Shown in pieces: positions 14,539 through 22,450 of a stretch of 39,793 bases of DNA. Below the pieces are notes generated by a model. The model was not told where the DNA came from. It was given only the letters and a program-made list of their open reading frames with translations, and ran no database searches. The first letter of the stretch is position 1. The number at the start of each line of letters is the position of its first letter. A program made the position numbers and the translations under genes. Origin of the DNA: Escherichia phage Ro45lw; the sequence record NC_048136.1; one strand, 5' to 3'.

Positions 14539-15136
14539 TAACATCATGGTGCACATTAAATCTGGTGAACTCGGTGAACTCCTAATGGGACAATACCGAG
14601 CCAAGCCATAGGGAGGATGTATGAGAGGCAAGAAGTTAATTCTTGAGGCCACTGAGACTGGCTGCATAATCCCTACGTCACATAAATTGAATCAGGATGG
14701 ATACTTCCGAAAGAGGACTAACGGTGTCCTTGAGATGTATCATAGAACTGTATGGATTAAAGCTAATGGTCCAATACCTGACGGTTTCGAAGTAGACCAC
14801 AAGTGTCGTAATAGAGCTTGTTGCAACGTCGAACATCTACAAGTATTAGACCGGGACTCACACTTAGTCAAGACCAACCAAGAGCGATACGCTGCTAGGA
14901 AGCTAGAAGCACGAGACTACTGGGTAGAGACTGGGTGTACTGGAACGAAGTTAGCCGAAGTATTCAATGTGTCGTTCTCAGCCGCCTGTGGGTGGATTAG
15001 AGAGTGGAAGGCGTAGAGACTATCCGAAAGGAGTAGGGCCGTGGGTGAGATTCCCACGTAACCCGAAGCGCCAGACAGTCACCTCAAAGACTGATGATAT
15101 AGTCCGACACTTCCAGTAATGGGAGAATACAGAAAG
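14539..15136 (+). mobile_element. Putative group I intron (598 nt) carrying an HNH homing endonuclease gene
   Basis: Separates two segments that together encode an intact T7-like DNA polymerase; 5' exon ends in T, insert ends in G; P1 candidate 14533-14538/14549-14554; R-like AGAGACTA (15013-15020) and S-like GATATAGTCCGAC (15097-15109). Confidence 0.75.
14621..15016 (+). CDS. Intron-encoded HNH homing endonuclease, 131 aa
   Basis: RBS GGGAGG; HNH-type motif GPIPDGFEVDHKCRNRACCNVEHL; AGA/AGG/ATA-rich codon usage unlike neighbouring genes. Confidence 0.8.
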   Translation: MRGKKLILEATETGCIIPTSHKLNQDGYFRKRTNGVLEMYHRTVWIKANGPIPDGFEVDHKCRNRACCNVEHLQVLDRDSHLVKTNQERYAARKLEARDYWVETGCTGTKLAEVFNVSFSAACGWIREWKA

Positions 15137-15582: not shown

Positions 15583-15788
15583 GCGAATACTTACGGGTCC
15601 TTGCGGCCCTCAAGTCCTGCCCGAAGACCTTTCAGTCAAACTATGTGCGCAACAACGCTGCACTGGTGGCTGAGGCTGCGAGTCGTGGACATCTGAGCTG
15701 TCTGTCTATGGATGGGCGTAACAACGGTGCGTGGGAGATTACCGCTGCTGGCACCAAGTTCCTGAACCAACATGGAGGCTGTCTATGA
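15579..15788 (+). CDS. 5.7: gp5.7-like protein
   Basis: LKSCPKTFQSNYVRNNAALVAEAASRGHLSCL...GGAWEITAAG is nearly identical to T7 gp5.7. Confidence 0.85.
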   Translation: MSEYLRVLAALKSCPKTFQSNYVRNNAALVAEAASRGHLSCLSMDGRNNGAWEITAAGTKFLNQHGGCL

Positions 15789-16651
15789 GTGAGAAGAAGA
15801 TTGCTCTGGTGCTGGATGGTGATTACCTAGTGTTCTCATCTATGGCTGCGGCTGAGGATGAGACCGATTGGGGTGATGATATTTATACTCTGATTTGTGA
15901 CCACGCCAAGGCCCGGCGCATCCTTGAGAGCACCATCGCCGAAATCGTTAAGAAGCGTAAGGCGTGGAAAGACGCTAAGATTGTGATGTGCTTCACCGAT
16001 GACGCCAACTGGCGCAAGGACGTCCTGCCTACCTATAAGGCCAACCGTAAAGGTTCTCGCAAGCCTGTAGGGTACAAGAAGTTCGTAGCCGAAGTGATGT
16101 CTGACCCACGGTTCAACAGCTTCCTTCGTCCTACGCTTGAGGGTGATGACTGTATGGGTATCATCGGGACCCGACCTCAGATTGTAGGATGTGACCATGC
16201 GGTGCTGGTGTCCTGTGACAAGGACTTCAAGACTATCCCGAACTGTGAGTTCTTCTGGTTAACCACTGGTGAAATCCTGAGTCATACGACTGCCGAGGCA
16301 GACTACTGGCACATGGAGCAAACCATCAAGGGTGACACTACAGATGGCTACGGTGGCATTCCGGGGATGGGTGAGGATACCACGCGTGCGTTCCTTGACG
16401 AGCCGTACTACTTCGTGCAGGAGAGCCGTGAGCTTAAGACTGGTAAGAACAAAGGCCAGATTAAGACTGAGTGGAAGAAGTATCCTAAGCGTGAAGACAT
16501 GACGCTGTGGGACTGCATGGTGACTCTGGCTGCTAAAGCCGGGATGACCGAACAGGAACTACTGGTCCAAGCTCAGGTCGCTCGCATCTGCCGGGCATCT
16601 GACTACGACCCCAAGTCCAAGGAGGTCATTCTGTGGACACCCTCCATGTAG
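15785..16651 (+). CDS. 6: 5'-3' exonuclease
   Basis: CDHAKAR, NWRKDVLPTYKANRK, CDKDFKTIPNCEFFW, TIKGDTTDGY, TLWDC, AKAGMTE match T7 gp6; ATG 15785 with RBS GGAGG. Confidence 0.9.
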   Translation: MSEKKIALVLDGDYLVFSSMAAAEDETDWGDDIYTLICDHAKARRILESTIAEIVKKRKAWKDAKIVMCFTDDANWRKDVLPTYKANRKGSRKPVGYKKFVAEVMSDPRFNSFLRPTLEGDDCMGIIGTRPQIVGCDHAVLVSCDKDFKTIPNCEFFWLTTGEILSHTTAEADYWHMEQTIKGDTTDGYGGIPGMGEDTTRAFLDEPYYFVQESRELKTGKNKGQIKTEWKKYPKREDMTLWDCMVTLAAKAGMTEQELLVQAQVARICRASDYDPKSKEVILWTPSM

Positions 16652-16774
16652 TGTATTGGGCCGGACTTCTGGCCCTTTACTTGCTGTACACGTTCAGCGG
16701 GACAAACCGTCCTAAGCATTGAGTCTAACCGATAGTCATAACCTATCGTTCTGCTGGCCATCTATAGGTGAAAC

Positions 16775-16797
16775 ACTAAACTATCACTATAGGGACT
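16775..16797 (+). promoter_or_regulatory. Phage-RNAP promoter (phi6.5-like)
   Basis: CACTAAACTATCACTATAGGGACT, consensus. Confidence 0.8.
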
Positions 16798-16859
16798 TTA
16801 GGACCTAAGTTATGACTATAAGATAAACTTAAGTTAATACTTTAAGAGGAGACTTTAAG

Positions 16860-17132
16860 ATGGGCCTGAAAGCCATTGATGATATTGTTAATCAGCAACT
16901 CGACGAGAGACTTAAGGTCCCTGCGTTCTCCGAGTCCGCTATCCAATTCCTTCACGTTCTGTTCAATGAGCGGTATGTATCCCGTTGTGGGACAATCCGT
17001 GACCTGAAGGCTGCTGGCTACAGTGATGCCTATATTGCTGGGTTCATCGCTGGTCTGGGCTATGCCTCGGAGTCTGTGGACTCTGCGCTGGCTAAGCGTC
17101 AGAACCTGAAGGACAACATTCAGTTCGACTAA
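16860..17132 (+). CDS. Hypothetical protein, 90 aa (gene 6.5 position)
   Basis: RBS AAGAGGAG; first gene after the phi6.5-like promoter. Confidence 0.6.
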   Translation: MGLKAIDDIVNQQLDERLKVPAFSESAIQFLHVLFNERYVSRCGTIRDLKAAGYSDAYIAGFIAGLGYASESVDSALAKRQNLKDNIQFD

Positions 17133-17370: not shown

Positions 17371-17772
17371 ATGCTCCACTACCGAAACTCAAGCGATGGT
17401 CGCCTAATGGCTGCTTATCGCCTCTGGGAAGACGGACAGTCTGACTTCGCCTCCTTCTCCGAGTTCAAGCAGCATACCTTCCGTATGGCTGATGAGCTTG
17501 AGGGCGAGGAGTACACAATCTACGATGATGAGTGTAAGCCTGTGGCCTACCTCTACATGCTGGCTTCATCGTCTTGGCACCGAAAGACTCCCGGTCTTGA
17601 CCTTTCCATTCTCGCTATCCGTAGTGACTCGCAGTCCTCCCGCAAGGTTCTTGAGACTGTCAGACACATTATTGACGGAGAGTGCAGACGATGGGGTCTG
17701 AACTGGTGGTCCCGTGTCAAGCACAATGGGCCAGTAGACATCGTTACAACCAAGGAGATTAACCGTGGGTAA
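17371..17772 (+). CDS. 7: gp7-like protein (host range / virion assembly)
   Basis: 133 aa; VAYLYMLA...WxSRxKHxG pattern similar to T7 gp7. Confidence 0.65.
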   Translation: MLHYRNSSDGRLMAAYRLWEDGQSDFASFSEFKQHTFRMADELEGEEYTIYDDECKPVAYLYMLASSSWHRKTPGLDLSILAIRSDSQSSRKVLETVRHIIDGECRRWGLNWWSRVKHNGPVDIVTTKEINRG

Positions 17773-18016
17773 ATCCATTAGTAAAGCCTTTAAGAAAGTA
17801 GTAGGTGGTGCTCTGAACACCGTAGGTCTGGGACAATCAGCCCCTCAGCCTAAAGCTCAGGACGCTCAGGTAGCTGCTGCTCCGGTAGAAGTGCCTCAGG
17901 ACCAAGTGACTGACGTTGAGACTGATGTGACCGAGACCGATAAGAAGAAGGTCAAGTCAACTGGTAAGCGTGGACTTCAAGTCTCTCGTACCTCTGGTGG
18001 AGGCATCTCTATATGA
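17765..18016 (+). CDS. 7.3: gp7.3-like tail/host-range protein
   Basis: C-terminus GKRGLQVSRTSGGGISI matches T7 gp7.3 (SLSVARSSGGGINI); GTG start with RBS AAGGAG 8 nt upstream. Confidence 0.8.
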   Translation: MGKSISKAFKKVVGGALNTVGLGQSAPQPKAQDAQVAAAPVEVPQDQVTDVETDVTETDKKKVKSTGKRGLQVSRTSGGGISI

Positions 18017-18423
18017 CAGACTGCATACTACATAAGGGCTGCGTTAATAATTCTGGGTATGGCCTGAAGTGGTATGCCGGTAAGCTGCGGGGAGCACACG
18101 TAGTGTCATATCTCAAGAACAAGGGACCTATACCAGAAGGGCTAGTTGTGATGCACTCTTGTGACAACAGATTGTGCGTAAATCCAGAACACCTTAGTGT
18201 TGGGACCTACAGTGAGAACATGATAGACTGTGTTTCCAAGGGACGGAAGAACGCTCCGCATAGTGACAGCCACTACAACTCCAAGCTGAGCGCTGAAGAA
18301 GTTAAGTCCATACGCAAGTCAGGACTAACTGCTACAGAGCTTACAGCCATGTATCCTGGAGTGTCTAGGAGAACGCTGTCTGACGTATTAACAGGTAAAA
18401 CATGGAGGCACGTAGATGGCTGA
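18013..18423 (+). CDS. HNH endonuclease (free-standing, putative homing endonuclease), 136 aa
   Basis: SGYG...GPIPEGLVVMHSCDNRLCVNPEHL motif; paralogous to the ORF at 29244; AGG/AGA/ATA codons. Confidence 0.85.
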   Translation: MTDCILHKGCVNNSGYGLKWYAGKLRGAHVVSYLKNKGPIPEGLVVMHSCDNRLCVNPEHLSVGTYSENMIDCVSKGRKNAPHSDSHYNSKLSAEEVKSIRKSGLTATELTAMYPGVSRRTLSDVLTGKTWRHVDG

Positions 18424-19984
18424 ACGTGAAGGATTTGCTGCTGAAGGCGCGAAGTCAGTTTATAATAGATTGAAGAACGGACGACAGCCTTACGAGACCC
18501 GCGCACAGAACTGCGCTGCCGTGACCATCCCCTCGCTATTTCCTAAGGAGTCTGACAACTCGTCTACGGAATATTCAACCCCGTGGCAAGCTGTGGGCGC
18601 TCGCTGCCTGAATAACCTTGCAGCCAAGCTGATGCTGGCTCTGTTCCCACAAGCGCCGTGGATGCGGCTTACCGTCTCTGAATACGAGGCAAAGGCTCTA
18701 AGTCAAGACTCTGAGGCTGCTGCCCGTGTTGACGAGGGGCTGGCTATGGTCGAACGTGTCCTGATGGCCTACATGGAGACTAACAGTTTCCGTGTCCCGC
18801 TATTCGAGGCCCTTAAGCAACTTATCGTCGCAGGCAACTGTCTGCTGTACGTTCCTGAACCTGAGCAAGGGACCTATAGTCCTATGCGCATGTATCGTCT
18901 GGTATCATATGTGGTCCAGCGTGATGCGTTCGGTAACGTGCTCCAGATTGTCACCCTCGACAAGGTGGCATATAGCGCACTACCTGAAGACGTTAAGTCC
19001 CAGCTAAACGCTGACGACTACGAGCCGGACACCGAGCTGGAAGTCTACACGCACATCTATCGTCAGGACGACGAGTACCTGCGCTATGAGGAAGTGGAAG
19101 GCATAGAGGTTAAGGGGACCGATGGTTCCTACCCGCTGAATGCCTGTCCTTACATCCCGGTACGAATGGTTCGACTGGATGGTGAAGACTATGGTCGTTC
19201 TTACTGCGAGGAGTATCTTGGAGACCTAAACTCGCTGGAGACGATTACAGAAGCTATCACCAAAATGGCTAAGGTAGCCTCCAAAGTGGTGGGCCTCGTT
19301 AACCCGAACGGTATCACGCAACCTCGACGTCTGAACAAGGCGGCTACAGGTGAGTTCGTGGCTGGTCGAGTAGAGGACGTCAACTTCCTGCAACTTACGA
19401 AAGGTCAGGACTTTACGATTGCTAAGTCGGTGGCTGACGCTATCGAGCAACGTTTAGGCTGGGCCTTCCTTCTTAATAGTGCTGTTCAGCGTAATGCCGA
19501 GCGAGTCACTGCCGCAGAGATTCGTTATGTTGCTGGCGAACTGGAGGCGACCTTAGGTGGCGTGTACTCTGTGCAGTCTCAGGAGATGCAGTTACCTCTG
19601 GTCCGTGTGTTGCTGAACCAGCTTCAGTCTGCTGGCATGATTCCTGACCTTCCGAAGGAAGCGGTAGAGCCTACGGTCTCCACTGGTCTGGAAGCGCTGG
19701 GCCGTGGTCAGGACTTGGAGAAGCTGACTCAGGCGGTTAACATGATGACTGGACTTCAGCCTCTGGCTCAGGACCCTGACATCAACTTGCCGACCCTGAA
19801 GCTGCGACTGCTGAATGCCTTAGGAATTGACACCGCTGGCCTACTCCTGACGCAAGACGAGAAGATTCAGCGCATGGCTGAGCAGTCATCTCAACAGGCA
19901 GTTGTCCAAGGTGCTGGTGCTGCTGGTGCTAACATGGGAGCTGCTGTAGGTCAGGGAGCTGGTGAGGACATGGCTCAAGCCTAA
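18416..19984 (+). CDS. 8: Portal (head-tail connector) protein
   Basis: Long identical stretches to T7 gp8 (PYETRAQNCA, TPWQAVGAR, YVVQRDAFGNVLQ, GLVNPNGITQPRRL, QLPLVRVLL). Confidence 0.95.
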   Translation: MAEREGFAAEGAKSVYNRLKNGRQPYETRAQNCAAVTIPSLFPKESDNSSTEYSTPWQAVGARCLNNLAAKLMLALFPQAPWMRLTVSEYEAKALSQDSEAAARVDEGLAMVERVLMAYMETNSFRVPLFEALKQLIVAGNCLLYVPEPEQGTYSPMRMYRLVSYVVQRDAFGNVLQIVTLDKVAYSALPEDVKSQLNADDYEPDTELEVYTHIYRQDDEYLRYEEVEGIEVKGTDGSYPLNACPYIPVRMVRLDGEDYGRSYCEEYLGDLNSLETITEAITKMAKVASKVVGLVNPNGITQPRRLNKAATGEFVAGRVEDVNFLQLTKGQDFTIAKSVADAIEQRLGWAFLLNSAVQRNAERVTAAEIRYVAGELEATLGGVYSVQSQEMQLPLVRVLLNQLQSAGMIPDLPKEAVEPTVSTGLEALGRGQDLEKLTQAVNMMTGLQPLAQDPDINLPTLKLRLLNALGIDTAGLLLTQDEKIQRMAEQSSQQAVVQGAGAAGANMGAAVGQGAGEDMAQA

Positions 19985-20002
19985 ACTATCACTATAGGAA
20001 CT
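19980..20002 (+). promoter_or_regulatory. Phage-RNAP promoter (phi9-like)
   Basis: CCTAAACTATCACTATAGGAACT; followed by hairpin CCGGGTGAGACTCCCGG at 20030-20046. Confidence 0.8.
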
Positions 20003-20080
20003 TAGACAAGATTCACAAAGCATTAGGCCGGGTGAGACTCCCGGTCGGTTCCTATCATCAACTTAAAGGAGAATGACTCA

Positions 20081-22405: not shown

Positions 22406-22409
22406 TTGA

Positions 22410-22450
22410 AACCCCTTGGGTGCCTTCGGGTGCTTGAGGGGTTTTTTTTC
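22410..22450 (+). terminator. Late transcription terminator (T-phi-like)
   Basis: AACCCCTTGGGTGCC TTCG GGTGCTTGAGGGGTT hairpin with G-U pairs followed by TTTTTTTT. Confidence 0.8.

What the first reader, a model, noticed from the sequence alone, without database searches (positions are those of the whole stretch)
16658..16676. GC-rich hairpin immediately after the exonuclease gene
GGGCC GGACTTCT GGCCC followed by TTTAC lies between the gene 6 stop and the phi6.5-like promoter. It is a possible transcript-stabilising 3' hairpin or weak terminator separating middle and late transcription.
Basis: seen in the sequence. Interest (0 to 1): 0.2.

Follow-up and report, generated by a model that had tools for sequence, protein, structure and literature searches.

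The report
Conserved hairpin inside a tiny overlooked gene
The GC-rich hairpin after the exonuclease gene of this T7-like phage is real and conserved, but it lies inside a 29-codon gene for a small membrane peptide rather than in spacer DNA, and nothing indicates that it is a transcription terminator.

Summary
The window is a Kayfunavirus, a K1F-like relative of T7.

**The hairpin.** GGGCCGG-ACTT-CTGGCCC at 16658-16675 is real. It has 7 pairs including one G·U, a 4-nt loop, about -13 kcal/mol, and pair probability near 1. It is not in non-coding DNA.

**The gene around it.**
- A 29-codon ORF runs from GTG 16633 to TGA 16722, behind the Shine-Dalgarno AAGGAGGT at 16619-16626.
- It overlaps the end of gene 6 and encodes MDTLHVVYWAGLLALYLLYTFSGTNRPKH.
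- The ORF is intact in 35 of the 36 other Kayfunavirus copies examined. It matches PHROG 28149 (E=8.5e-15) and is an annotated CDS in some relatives.
- It sits where T7 has gene 6.3. The hairpin is codons W-A-G-L-L-A-L.

**How much is chance.**
- One hairpin this stable is expected by chance per genome (1.08 in shuffles).
- The peptide alone predisposes to it: about 20% of synonymous recodings reach -10 kcal/mol or lower.

**Signs of an extra constraint.**
- Synonymous sites of codons 9-16 are almost frozen (diversity 0.05 against 0.32 in gene 6).
- The native codons are in the top 1.3-1.7% for stability.
- Citrobacter phage CR8 and the T3-like phages carry different hairpins at the same place.
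- Covariation, however, is not significant.

**The known separator of middle and late RNA.** This is downstream: a long hairpin (16715-16835) of the T7 R6.5 RNase III type that encloses the promoter.

**Verdict.** A coding-embedded hairpin, possibly an mRNA-stability element. A terminator role is unsupported.

The parts
16658..16675 (+). Hairpin H1: GGGCCGG / ACUU / CUGGCCC. It has 7 pairs, one of them G·U, and corresponds to codons 9-15 (W-A-G-L-L-A-L) of the small ORF.
   Evidence: pair probability 0.99-1.0. It is conserved in relatives.
16657..16680 (+). Island of suppressed synonymous variation: codons 9-16 (TGG GCC GGA CTT CTG GCC CTT TAC), i.e. the hairpin plus CUUUAC.
   Evidence: Third-position diversity is 0-0.16 here, against 0.74 and 0.36 in codons 7-8, 0.64 in codon 17 and 0.11-0.53 in the C-terminal codons. 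None of 87 runs of six 4-fold sites in gene 6 is as conserved.
16633..16722 (+). 29-codon ORF (GTG start, TGA stop) encoding MDTLHVVYWAGLLALYLLYTFSGTNRPKH, a small hydrophobic peptide at the position of T7 gene 6.3. Its first 19 nt overlap gene 6 in the -1 frame.
   Evidence: - It matches PHROG 28149 at E=8.5e-15 over its full length.
- It is an annotated CDS in Bas105, Penshu1 and vB_Ecl_MII_002.
- It is intact in 35 of the 36 other Kayfunavirus copies, with a GTG/ATG start switch, a frame-keeping 3-nt indel and synonymous variation in its C-terminal codons. L205, a probable assembly error, is the exception.
- tblastn finds it in 72 phage records.
- Its hydrophobic core is residues 6-22.
16619..16626 (+). 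Shine-Dalgarno sequence AAGGAGGT for the small ORF, 6 nt before the GTG. It lies in gene 6 codons K-E-V.
   Evidence: It is conserved in all relatives. The same arrangement occurs in T7 (AAGGAG, then 8 nt, then GTG) and across Studiervirinae.
15785..16651 (+). Gene 6, the 5'-3' exonuclease.
   Evidence: Pfam PF02739. It is annotated as exonuclease in all relatives.
16715..16835 (+). Long imperfect hairpin that encloses the promoter, analogous to the T7 R6.5 RNase III site. Its core stem pairs 16732-16742 with 16809-19, and its lower stem pairs 16715-16729 with 16822-16835.
   Evidence: The stems appear in the MFE fold with pair probabilities near 1. Compensatory changes occur at 5 pairs, e.g. 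U-A to A-U in 6 sequences and A-U to U-A or C-G in 3. T7 R6.5 has the same architecture around phi6.5.
16775..16797 (+). Phage RNA polymerase promoter of the phi6.5 type, ACTAAACTATCACTATAGGGAC, with +1 at G16792.
   Evidence: There are 9 copies of the consensus in the window against 0 expected. It is annotated as a promoter at the equivalent place in CR44b and CR8.
16860..17132 (+). Gene 6.5.
   Evidence: Pfam PF10911, T7-like gene 6.5, E=1.2e-17.

Best explanation
**What it is (shown).** The inverted repeat is first of all coding sequence. It spells W-A-G-L-L-A-L, the core of the hydrophobic segment of a 29-residue peptide.
- The gene runs from 16633 to 16722. It starts at a GTG inside the last codons of gene 6, behind a strong Shine-Dalgarno sequence.
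- It is the positional counterpart of T7 gene 6.3, the last 'middle' gene.
- Ala (GCC), Gly (GGN) and Leu (CUN) codons are mutually complementary, so this peptide tends to encode a hairpin.

**What is added to that (inferred, about 50% likely).** The hairpin is also kept as an RNA structure in the middle-gene transcripts.
- T7-type polymerases outrun ribosomes, so the hairpin can form. This rests on established knowledge, not on a test here.
- It sits 7 nt behind the gene 6 stop and about 40 nt ahead of the RNase III-type processing hairpin.
- Its most likely job is to block 3'-to-5' exonucleases, or to act as a local folding insulator, protecting the gene 6 message after processing or cleavage downstream.

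**What it is not.** It is not an efficient terminator. Separation of middle and late RNA is done, as in T7, by the R6.5-type hairpin that encloses the late promoter.
For: **The hairpin is inside a gene.**
- The ORF has a Shine-Dalgarno sequence and start, and is intact in 35 of the 36 other Kayfunavirus copies and in CR8. L205, a probable assembly error, is the exception.
- The start codon switches between GTG and ATG, a 3-nt indel keeps the frame, and the conserved C-terminus N-R-P-K-H varies synonymously (CGT/CGA/AGG, CCT/CCG, AAG/AAA, CAT/CAC).
- It matches PHROG 28149 at E=8.5e-15 and is an annotated CDS in three relatives.
- The same overlap architecture and a hydrophobic peptide are found in T7, the T3-like phages and other genera.

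**The peptide predisposes to a hairpin.** Synonymous recodings of YWAGLLALY average -7.5 kcal/mol, and 20% reach -10 or lower.

**There is an extra RNA-level constraint.**
- The native sequence is in the top 1.3-1.7% of recodings.
- 4-fold-site diversity is 0.054 in the hairpin codons against 0.32 in gene 6, and none of 87 comparable runs is as low. The island is sharply bounded.
- Eight of nine natural variants keep the fold, mostly through C-to-U changes that give G·U on the + strand only. One double change turns C-G into A-U.
- CR8, of a different genus, has a different 7-8 bp hairpin at the same place, in the top 0.5% of its recodings. The T3-like phages have another, in the top 2.7%.

**The downstream R6.5-type site is real.**
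Against: - Covariation in the stem is not significant: 97 of 500 shuffles do as well.
- The coding constraint itself favours C-to-T changes that keep pairing.
- One natural variant (L004) weakens the stem to -5.2 kcal/mol.
- T7 and five other lineages show no excess hairpin stability in gene 6.3.
- One hairpin this stable is expected by chance per genome, and the finding was picked because it is a hairpin, so the recoding p-value for this lineage is biased.
- The recoding controls for other genera used this window's codon usage.
- No experimental data exist on the peptide or on transcript ends in Kayfunavirus.
- The proposed stabiliser role is inference only.
Confidence: 0.55

Rival explanations
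1. Pure by-product. The hairpin is only the consequence of encoding W-A-G-L-L-A-L and of shared ancestry. It may fold, but it does nothing.
For: - The peptide alone gives strongly structured RNA: recodings average -7.5 kcal/mol. My own calculation from the codon-usage table, not a direct tool output, puts the chance that all 7 pairs can form at about one third.
- The genome-wide count equals the chance expectation.
- Covariation is not significant.
- T7 and five other lineages show no excess.
- L004 carries a weakened stem.
Against: - The hairpin codons form a sharply bounded island of frozen synonymous sites, while flanking and C-terminal codons of the same ORF vary freely.
- Rare codons (GCC twice, GGA) are kept in place of the preferred GCT and GGT.
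- Independent hairpins occur at the same position in CR8 and in the T3-like phages.
Confidence: 0.32
2. Weak terminator or pause site for the phage RNA polymerase. It would attenuate middle-promoter transcripts before the late region.
For: - It is a stable GC-rich hairpin followed by UUUAC. CR8's hairpin is followed by UUUUAG.
- The tail is conserved within the island.
- The position at the middle/late boundary makes regulatory sense.
Against: - Only three U follow the stem. Known T7-type class I terminators, and this window's own one at 22408-22445, have long stems plus U6-8 (established knowledge of T-phi).
- The U's are the Leu-Tyr codons, and they are lost in SFP20, which has CCUGUAC.
- The T3-like hairpin has no U-run.
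- Termination here would truncate the small ORF at codon 16 of 29.
- T7 itself has no terminator at this boundary and uses RNase III site R6.5, whose analogue is present.
- There is no class II signal ATCTGTT anywhere in the window.
Confidence: 0.08
3. Recoding stimulator. The hairpin 7 nt after the gene 6 stop would drive stop-codon read-through or a -1 frameshift, giving an extended exonuclease.
For: - The spacing of 6 nt between stop and stem is typical of such signals.
- The gene 6 frame stays open for 28 codons in most relatives.
- T7-like phages use frameshifting elsewhere, e.g. genes 10A/10B and 5.5-5.7 (established knowledge; one search lists a 5.5-5.7 fusion).
Against: - The stop codon varies among TAG, TAA and TGA.
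- There is no slippery heptamer before the stop.
- The read-through frame is closed by TAG in L010, and after two codons in CR8.
- The downstream part of that frame is poorly conserved compared with the small-ORF frame.
Confidence: 0.02
4. DNA-level palindrome. GGGCC-N8-GGCCC would be bound by a dimeric protein or used in replication or recombination.
For: It is an inverted repeat, and loop bases are conserved in most relatives.
Against: - The stem contains a G·T pair, and natural variants add more. These are mismatches on the other strand and break the DNA palindrome, while keeping the + strand RNA fold. The minus-strand fold is weaker, at -10.8 with only 5 pairs.
- The loop differs in SFP20.
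- There is no second copy in the genome.
- No site-specific DNA-binding protein of this kind is known in T7-like phages (own knowledge).
Confidence: 0.03

Closest known systems
T7 gene 6.3 (37-residue peptide, Pfam DUF5516, PHROG 11345), the last class II gene
   Same: - Same place: between gene 6 and the phi6.5 promoter/R6.5 site.
- Same start architecture: a GTG or ATG 13-28 nt before the gene 6 stop, in the conserved '...KE(V/I)xLW' codons, which double as the Shine-Dalgarno sequence.
- Similar size (27-41 residues), with a hydrophobic core followed by a polar or basic tail.
   Different: - No detectable sequence similarity. Pfam DUF5516 does not match, and hhalign between the two small families gives 1.4% probability.
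- T7's gene 6.3 shows no excess hairpin stability.
- The function of T7 gp6.3 is itself unknown. One missense change shortened lysis time in an evolved T7 (PMC2680503).
PHROG 28149 (30-residue phage protein family of unknown function)
   Same: The window's peptide matches the whole profile at E=8.5e-15, and the K1F-type version matches at E=1.5e-27.
   Different: Nothing differs, so it is a member. The family has no assigned function, and the ORF is left unannotated in most GenBank records of the genus.
T7 RNase III processing site R6.5
   Same: The downstream hairpin 16715-16835 is a long imperfect duplex that encloses the phi6.5-type promoter, like R6.5 in T7. Compensatory changes support it.
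   Different: It is a different element from the finding. H1 has only 7 bp and is far too short for RNase III. Cleavage was not tested.
T-phi type (class I) terminator of T7 RNA polymerase
   Same: A GC-rich hairpin followed by U residues on the transcribed strand.
   Different: The stem has 7 bp against 17 bp, and three U against eight, compared with this window's own T-phi-like element at 22408-22445. H1 lies inside an ORF.
3' stabilising hairpins of bacterial and phage mRNAs (exonuclease barriers, e.g. RNase III-processed T7 mRNA ends, REP elements)
   Same: A short, stable stem-loop just behind the stop codon of a highly expressed gene, upstream of a processing site.
   Different: It overlaps a translated ORF, so ribosomes translating the small gene would melt it. 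No 3' ends have been mapped. The resemblance is functional inference from established knowledge, not a test.

Membership tests
Class I (T-phi type) terminator of T7-like RNA polymerase | Stable GC-rich stem-loop in the transcript | tested here: met
   7 bp, -12.7 to -13.9 kcal/mol, pair probability about 1.
Class I (T-phi type) terminator of T7-like RNA polymerase | Run of about 6 or more U directly after the stem | tested here: not met
   The tail is UUUACUUG. SFP20 has CCUGUAC. The window's T-phi-like element has U8.
Class I (T-phi type) terminator of T7-like RNA polymerase | Transcript 3' ends at the site | not testable with these tools
   No transcript-end data for Kayfunavirus were found in the paper library.
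Gene 6.3-type small peptide gene of Studiervirinae (by position and architecture) | Start codon with a Shine-Dalgarno sequence inside the last codons of gene 6, in another frame | tested here: met
   AAGGAGGT, 6 nt, then GTG 16633. This is conserved in the relatives, T7, the T3-like phages and others.
Gene 6.3-type small peptide gene of Studiervirinae (by position and architecture) | Short (about 27-41 residues) hydrophobic peptide with a polar or basic C-terminus | tested here: met
   29 residues, with mean Kyte-Doolittle hydropathy of 1.59 over residues 6-22 and the tail SGTNRPKH.
Pfam DUF5516 (T7 gp6.3 family, by sequence) | Significant match to the family profile | tested here: not met
   No DUF5516 hit for the window's peptide, whereas T7 gp6.3 scores 2e-15. 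hhalign probability is 1.4%.
PHROG 28149 | Significant full-length match to the family profile | tested here: met
   E=8.5e-15, residues 1-29 on profile positions 1-30.
Protein-coding gene (signature of selection on the reading frame) | Frame kept across relatives, with synonymous variation at conserved residues | tested here: met
   35 of 35 distinct sequences are intact, with a GTG/ATG switch, a 3-nt indel and synonymous variation in the N-R-P-K-H codons.
Protein-coding gene (signature of selection on the reading frame) | Detected translation product | not testable with these tools
   No proteomic or ribosome-profiling data are available.
Conserved functional RNA hairpin | Compensatory (both-sided) changes beyond chance | tested here: inconclusive
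   96.8% of cells are paired and one pair changes on both sides, but 97 of 500 shuffles do as well.
Conserved functional RNA hairpin | Constraint on synonymous sites, and stability beyond what the protein requires | tested here: met
   Diversity is 0.054 against 0.32, and none of 87 runs is as low. The sequence is in the top 1.3-1.7% of recodings.
RNase III processing site | About two helical turns of imperfect duplex | tested here: not met
   H1 has 7 bp. The feature is met instead by the separate element at 16715-16835.

The most novel reading that the evidence does not exclude
The hairpin would be a functional cis-acting RNA element written into the coding sequence of a membrane-peptide gene. 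It would act as an exonuclease barrier, a polymerase pause, or a device that couples termination of gene 6 translation to the small ORF.

Equivalent hairpins would have arisen independently, 7-10 nt behind the gene 6 stop, in at least three genera: Kayfunavirus, Caroctavirus and the T3-like phages.
Probability: 0.35. Interest if true: 0.35.

Novelty: new member of a known kind. Interest (0 to 1): 0.22.

Why it matters
**Annotation.** Most GenBank records of this genus leave the 29-30 codon gene unannotated and treat the stretch as intergenic. Regulatory readings of 'spacer' hairpins there are therefore misleading.

**If the synonymous-site constraint reflects an RNA function.** This would be a compact case of a structured RNA element overlapping a protein-coding sequence in a T7-like phage. 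It would bear on how these phages set the stability of the exonuclease message, and on how gene 6.3-type peptides are expressed. The function of those peptides is still unknown.

**Phage engineering.** Recoding or deleting this 'intergenic' region would hit a gene, and perhaps an RNA element as well.

Tried and rejected
**Searches that gave nothing.**
- Rfam scan of the whole window: no family at gathering score.
- Metagenome pattern scan with GAGGTNATNNTRTGGACAC: the pattern was too loose. 
- Papers: nothing on transcript ends or terminators in Kayfunavirus. The K1F genome paper is not held. One search failed on a term that was too short.

**Tests that came out negative or weak.**
- Homology of the peptide to T7 gp6.3: none by Pfam or hhalign. 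The weak DltX hit (E=0.0016, below its cut-off) was ignored as hydrophobic noise.
- Covariation test of the stem: not significant.
- Smaller hairpins H2 and H3 (16683-16698, 16699-16713): not consistent between the two length classes of the ORF, so dropped.

**Readings rejected.**
- Read-through or frameshift extension of gene 6: rejected.
- Antisense ORF 16603-16761, called 'S26-RNase' in IMM-002: several frames are open here, and all genes and promoters are on the + strand. It was treated as spurious.

**Data set aside.**
- Enterobacter phage 02_vB_Eclo_IJM has 1-nt indels in the hairpin, but its exonuclease CDS is split as well. It was set aside as a likely assembly error.
- A search for relatives of CR8, to repeat the conservation test in a second lineage, found only CR8 itself.

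Full report
**What the window is.** The 600 bases around the finding match Kayfunavirus genomes at 94-95.5% identity. These are K1F-like members of Autographiviridae, subfamily Studiervirinae. Examples are Enterobacter phage EP1, Shigella phages SFP21A and SFPH2, Cronobacter phage Dev2 and Citrobacter phage SH4.
- The gene ending at 16651 is the 5'-3' exonuclease, gene 6 (Pfam PF02739).
- The gene starting at 16860 is gene 6.5 (PF10911), followed by gene 6.7.
ACTAAACTATCACTATAGGGA occurs 9 times on the + strand against none expected. One copy is at 16775-16795, with +1 at G16792.

**The observation.** GGGCCGGACTTCTGGCCC lies at 16658-16675 and is followed by TTTAC.
- It folds as 7 pairs (six G-C, one G·U) around the loop ACUU. 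The energy is -12.7 kcal/mol alone and -13.9 with flanks.
- Pair probabilities are 0.99-1.0 in contexts of up to 450 nt.
- It is the most stable 22-nt hairpin on the + strand. However, 25 dinucleotide shuffles of the window gave on average 1.08 hairpins at least as stable.
- Terminator-like pattern hits in the region are at chance level: 8 found against 10.5 expected.
- So the hairpin exists as described, but its mere existence is not beyond chance.

**It is not in non-coding DNA.** The ORF list at 30 residues or more missed a 29-codon frame.
- The frame runs GTG 16633 ... TGA 16722. It is preceded at the right spacing by AAGGAGGT (16619-16626).
- It encodes MDTLHVVYWAGLLALYLLYTFSGTNRPKH.
- It begins 19 nt before the gene 6 stop, in the -1 frame.
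- In 35 distinct Kayfunavirus sequences the frame is always intact. The start is GTG in 27 and ATG in 8. A 3-nt indel keeps the frame. The conserved C-terminus N-R-P-K-H varies synonymously (CGT/CGC/CGA/CGG/AGG, CCT/CCG, AAG/AAA, CAT/CAC).
- The peptide matches PHROG 28149 over its whole length at E=8.5e-15.
- It is an annotated CDS in Bas105, Penshu1 and vB_Ecl_MII_002.
- tblastn finds it in 72 phage records, most of which annotate only 'exonuclease' there.
- The hairpin is codons 9-15, TGG GCC GGA CTT CTG GCC C, i.e. W-A-G-L-L-A-L. This is the core of a hydrophobic stretch (residues 6-22, mean hydropathy 1.59).

**Relation to T7 gene 6.3.** T7 has gene 6.3 at this place. It is a 37-residue hydrophobic peptide that starts at a GTG 13 nt before the gene 6 stop, behind AAGGAG.
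- The same overlap architecture, with small hydrophobic peptides, recurs in the T3-like phages and several other lineages.
- Sequence similarity is not detectable. Pfam DUF5516 matches T7 gp6.3 at 2e-15 but not this peptide. hhalign gives 1.4% probability.
- So this is a positional and architectural counterpart, not a demonstrated homologue.
- Little is known of T7 gene 6.3. It is called the last class II gene and is poorly conserved. One missense change shortened lysis time in an evolved T7 (PMC2680503).
- A genome-reduction screen failed to delete it, although it had been listed as non-essential (PMC9825161).

**How much of the hairpin does the coding explain?**
- All 55,296 synonymous recodings of YWAGLLALY were enumerated and weighted by the phage's codon usage. 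They average -7.5 ± 2.7 kcal/mol, and 20% reach -10 or lower.
- The native sequence (-13.9) is matched by only 1.3%.
- Taking the best 27-nt hairpin anywhere in the free part of the ORF gives 1.3-1.7%.
- So the peptide predisposes strongly to a hairpin. The actual codons (GCC twice and GGA, all minority codons) make nearly the most stable version.
- This p-value is inflated by ascertainment, because the site was chosen for being a hairpin.

**Independent evidence for a nucleotide-level constraint.**
- Across 24 genomes, 4-fold degenerate sites of gene 6 have a mean pairwise diversity of 0.32, and only 12% are invariant.
- The six 4-fold sites of the hairpin codons have 0.054. No run of six consecutive 4-fold sites in gene 6 is as low (0 of 87).
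- Within the small ORF the island is sharp. Third-position diversity is 0.74 and 0.36 in codons 7-8, 0-0.16 in codons 9-16, 0.64 in codon 17 and 0.11-0.53 in the C-terminal codons.
- Nine natural variants of the 18-mer exist, and eight keep the fold. Most do so through C-to-U changes that give G·U on the + strand. One (L010) carries a double change from C-G to A-U, and its likely intermediate (L004) is weakened to -5.2 kcal/mol.
- Formally the covariation is not significant, since 97 of 500 shuffles do as well. The coding constraint itself favours C-to-T changes.
- Citrobacter phage CR8 (genus Caroctavirus) has a different peptide (MDTFQMIYIGALAVLLLVSTTWPTPKI). It also has a different hairpin, GGGGCAC-UAGCU-GUGCUCC, then UUUUAG, at the same distance from the gene 6 stop. 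That hairpin is in the top 0.5% of its recodings.
- The T3-like phages have a 10-bp hairpin at +8, in the top 2.7%.
- T7 and five other lineages show no excess.
- Taken together, an RNA-level role is plausible but not proven.

**What separates middle from late RNA.** Downstream, 16715-16835 folds into a long imperfect hairpin whose apical part contains the promoter.
- The core stem pairs 16732-16742 with 16809-16819, with probability about 1. The lower stem pairs 16715-16729 with 16822-16835.
- Five pairs show compensatory changes among relatives, e.g. U-A to A-U in six sequences and A-U to U-A or C-G in three.
- T7's region folds the same way around phi6.5. That is where the RNase III site R6.5 is placed in T7, according to established knowledge from Dunn and Studier's map.
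- Read-through transcripts from middle promoters would contain the whole hairpin. Transcripts started at 16792 would contain only its 3' arm.
- This element, not H1, is the expected processing point and 3'-end former for the gene 6/6.3 message.

**The terminator reading.**
- H1 has 7 bp and three U. The U's are the Leu-Tyr codons CTT TAC, and they are absent in SFP20.
- The window's own T-phi-like terminator has 17 pairs and U8.
- A terminator at codon 16 of a 29-codon gene would leave that gene's message without a stop codon.
- No class II signal (ATCTGTT) exists in the window.
- The curated records of CR44b and CR8 annotate the promoter but no terminator here.
- Without transcript-end data a weak pause cannot be excluded. 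I give it under 10%.

**Other readings rejected.**
- Read-through or frameshift: the stop codon varies among TAG, TAA and TGA, there is no slippery site, and the read-through frame is closed in L010 and CR8.
- DNA palindrome: G·T pairs break the symmetry on the other strand, and there is no second copy.
- Rfam: no family matches.

**Verdict.** The finding is a real, conserved hairpin, but it is part of a small, mostly unannotated gene.
- Its sequence is explained mainly by the peptide it encodes.
- A secondary RNA role is suggested by frozen synonymous sites and by convergent hairpins in two other genera. The most likely such role is an exonuclease barrier protecting the exonuclease message upstream of the RNase III-type site.
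- Interest is modest: a useful correction of annotation, and a possible small case of overlapping RNA and protein codes.

Noticed in passing
window 16715-16835: A long imperfect hairpin encloses the phi6.5-type promoter and carries compensatory base changes among relatives. It has the same architecture as T7's RNase III site R6.5. It is not annotated in any relative inspected.
   Followed up: yes
window 14621-15016 and 18013-18423: Two ORFs carry the HNH_3 endonuclease domain (Pfam E=9e-16 and 2e-12), which suggests homing-endonuclease-type genes. Dev2 has no gene between 7.3 and 8, so the second is an insertion relative to that close relative.
   Followed up: partly
window 20026-20046: This is the second most stable short hairpin of the + strand (GGCCGGG-TGAGACT-CCCGGTC, -13.6 kcal/mol). 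It lies about 30 nt downstream of the promoter copy at 19980-20000, just after gene 8. It may be a 5' hairpin of that transcript or part of a processing site.
   Followed up: no
window 22408-22445: A T-phi-like terminator with a 17-pair stem followed by eight T. It is the only convincing terminator-like element found between 10 and 25 kb.
   Followed up: no
window 2400, 5483, 10130, 16775, 19980, 20967, 25436, 33567, 39042 (starts): Nine copies of the phage promoter consensus ACTAAACTATCACTATAGGGA with 0-3 mismatches, all on the + strand.
   Followed up: partly
L205 (Enterobacter phage 02_vB_Eclo_IJM, OP272491.1 22457-22940): It has 1-nt indels inside the hairpin and a split exonuclease CDS. 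Taken at face value the small peptide would be frame-shifted over 9 residues, but this is probably an assembly error.
   Followed up: partly
L024, L025, L027 (IMG/VR T7-like contigs), just after gene 6: At the gene 6.3 position, with the same overlapping start, these lineages encode an 83-96 residue cysteine-rich protein (METVKACQDCKHF...) rather than a small hydrophobic peptide.
   Followed up: no
window 17371-17772: A 133-residue ORF at the gene 7 position has no Pfam match. Its counterparts in relatives are annotated 'host range and adsorption protein'.
   Followed up: no
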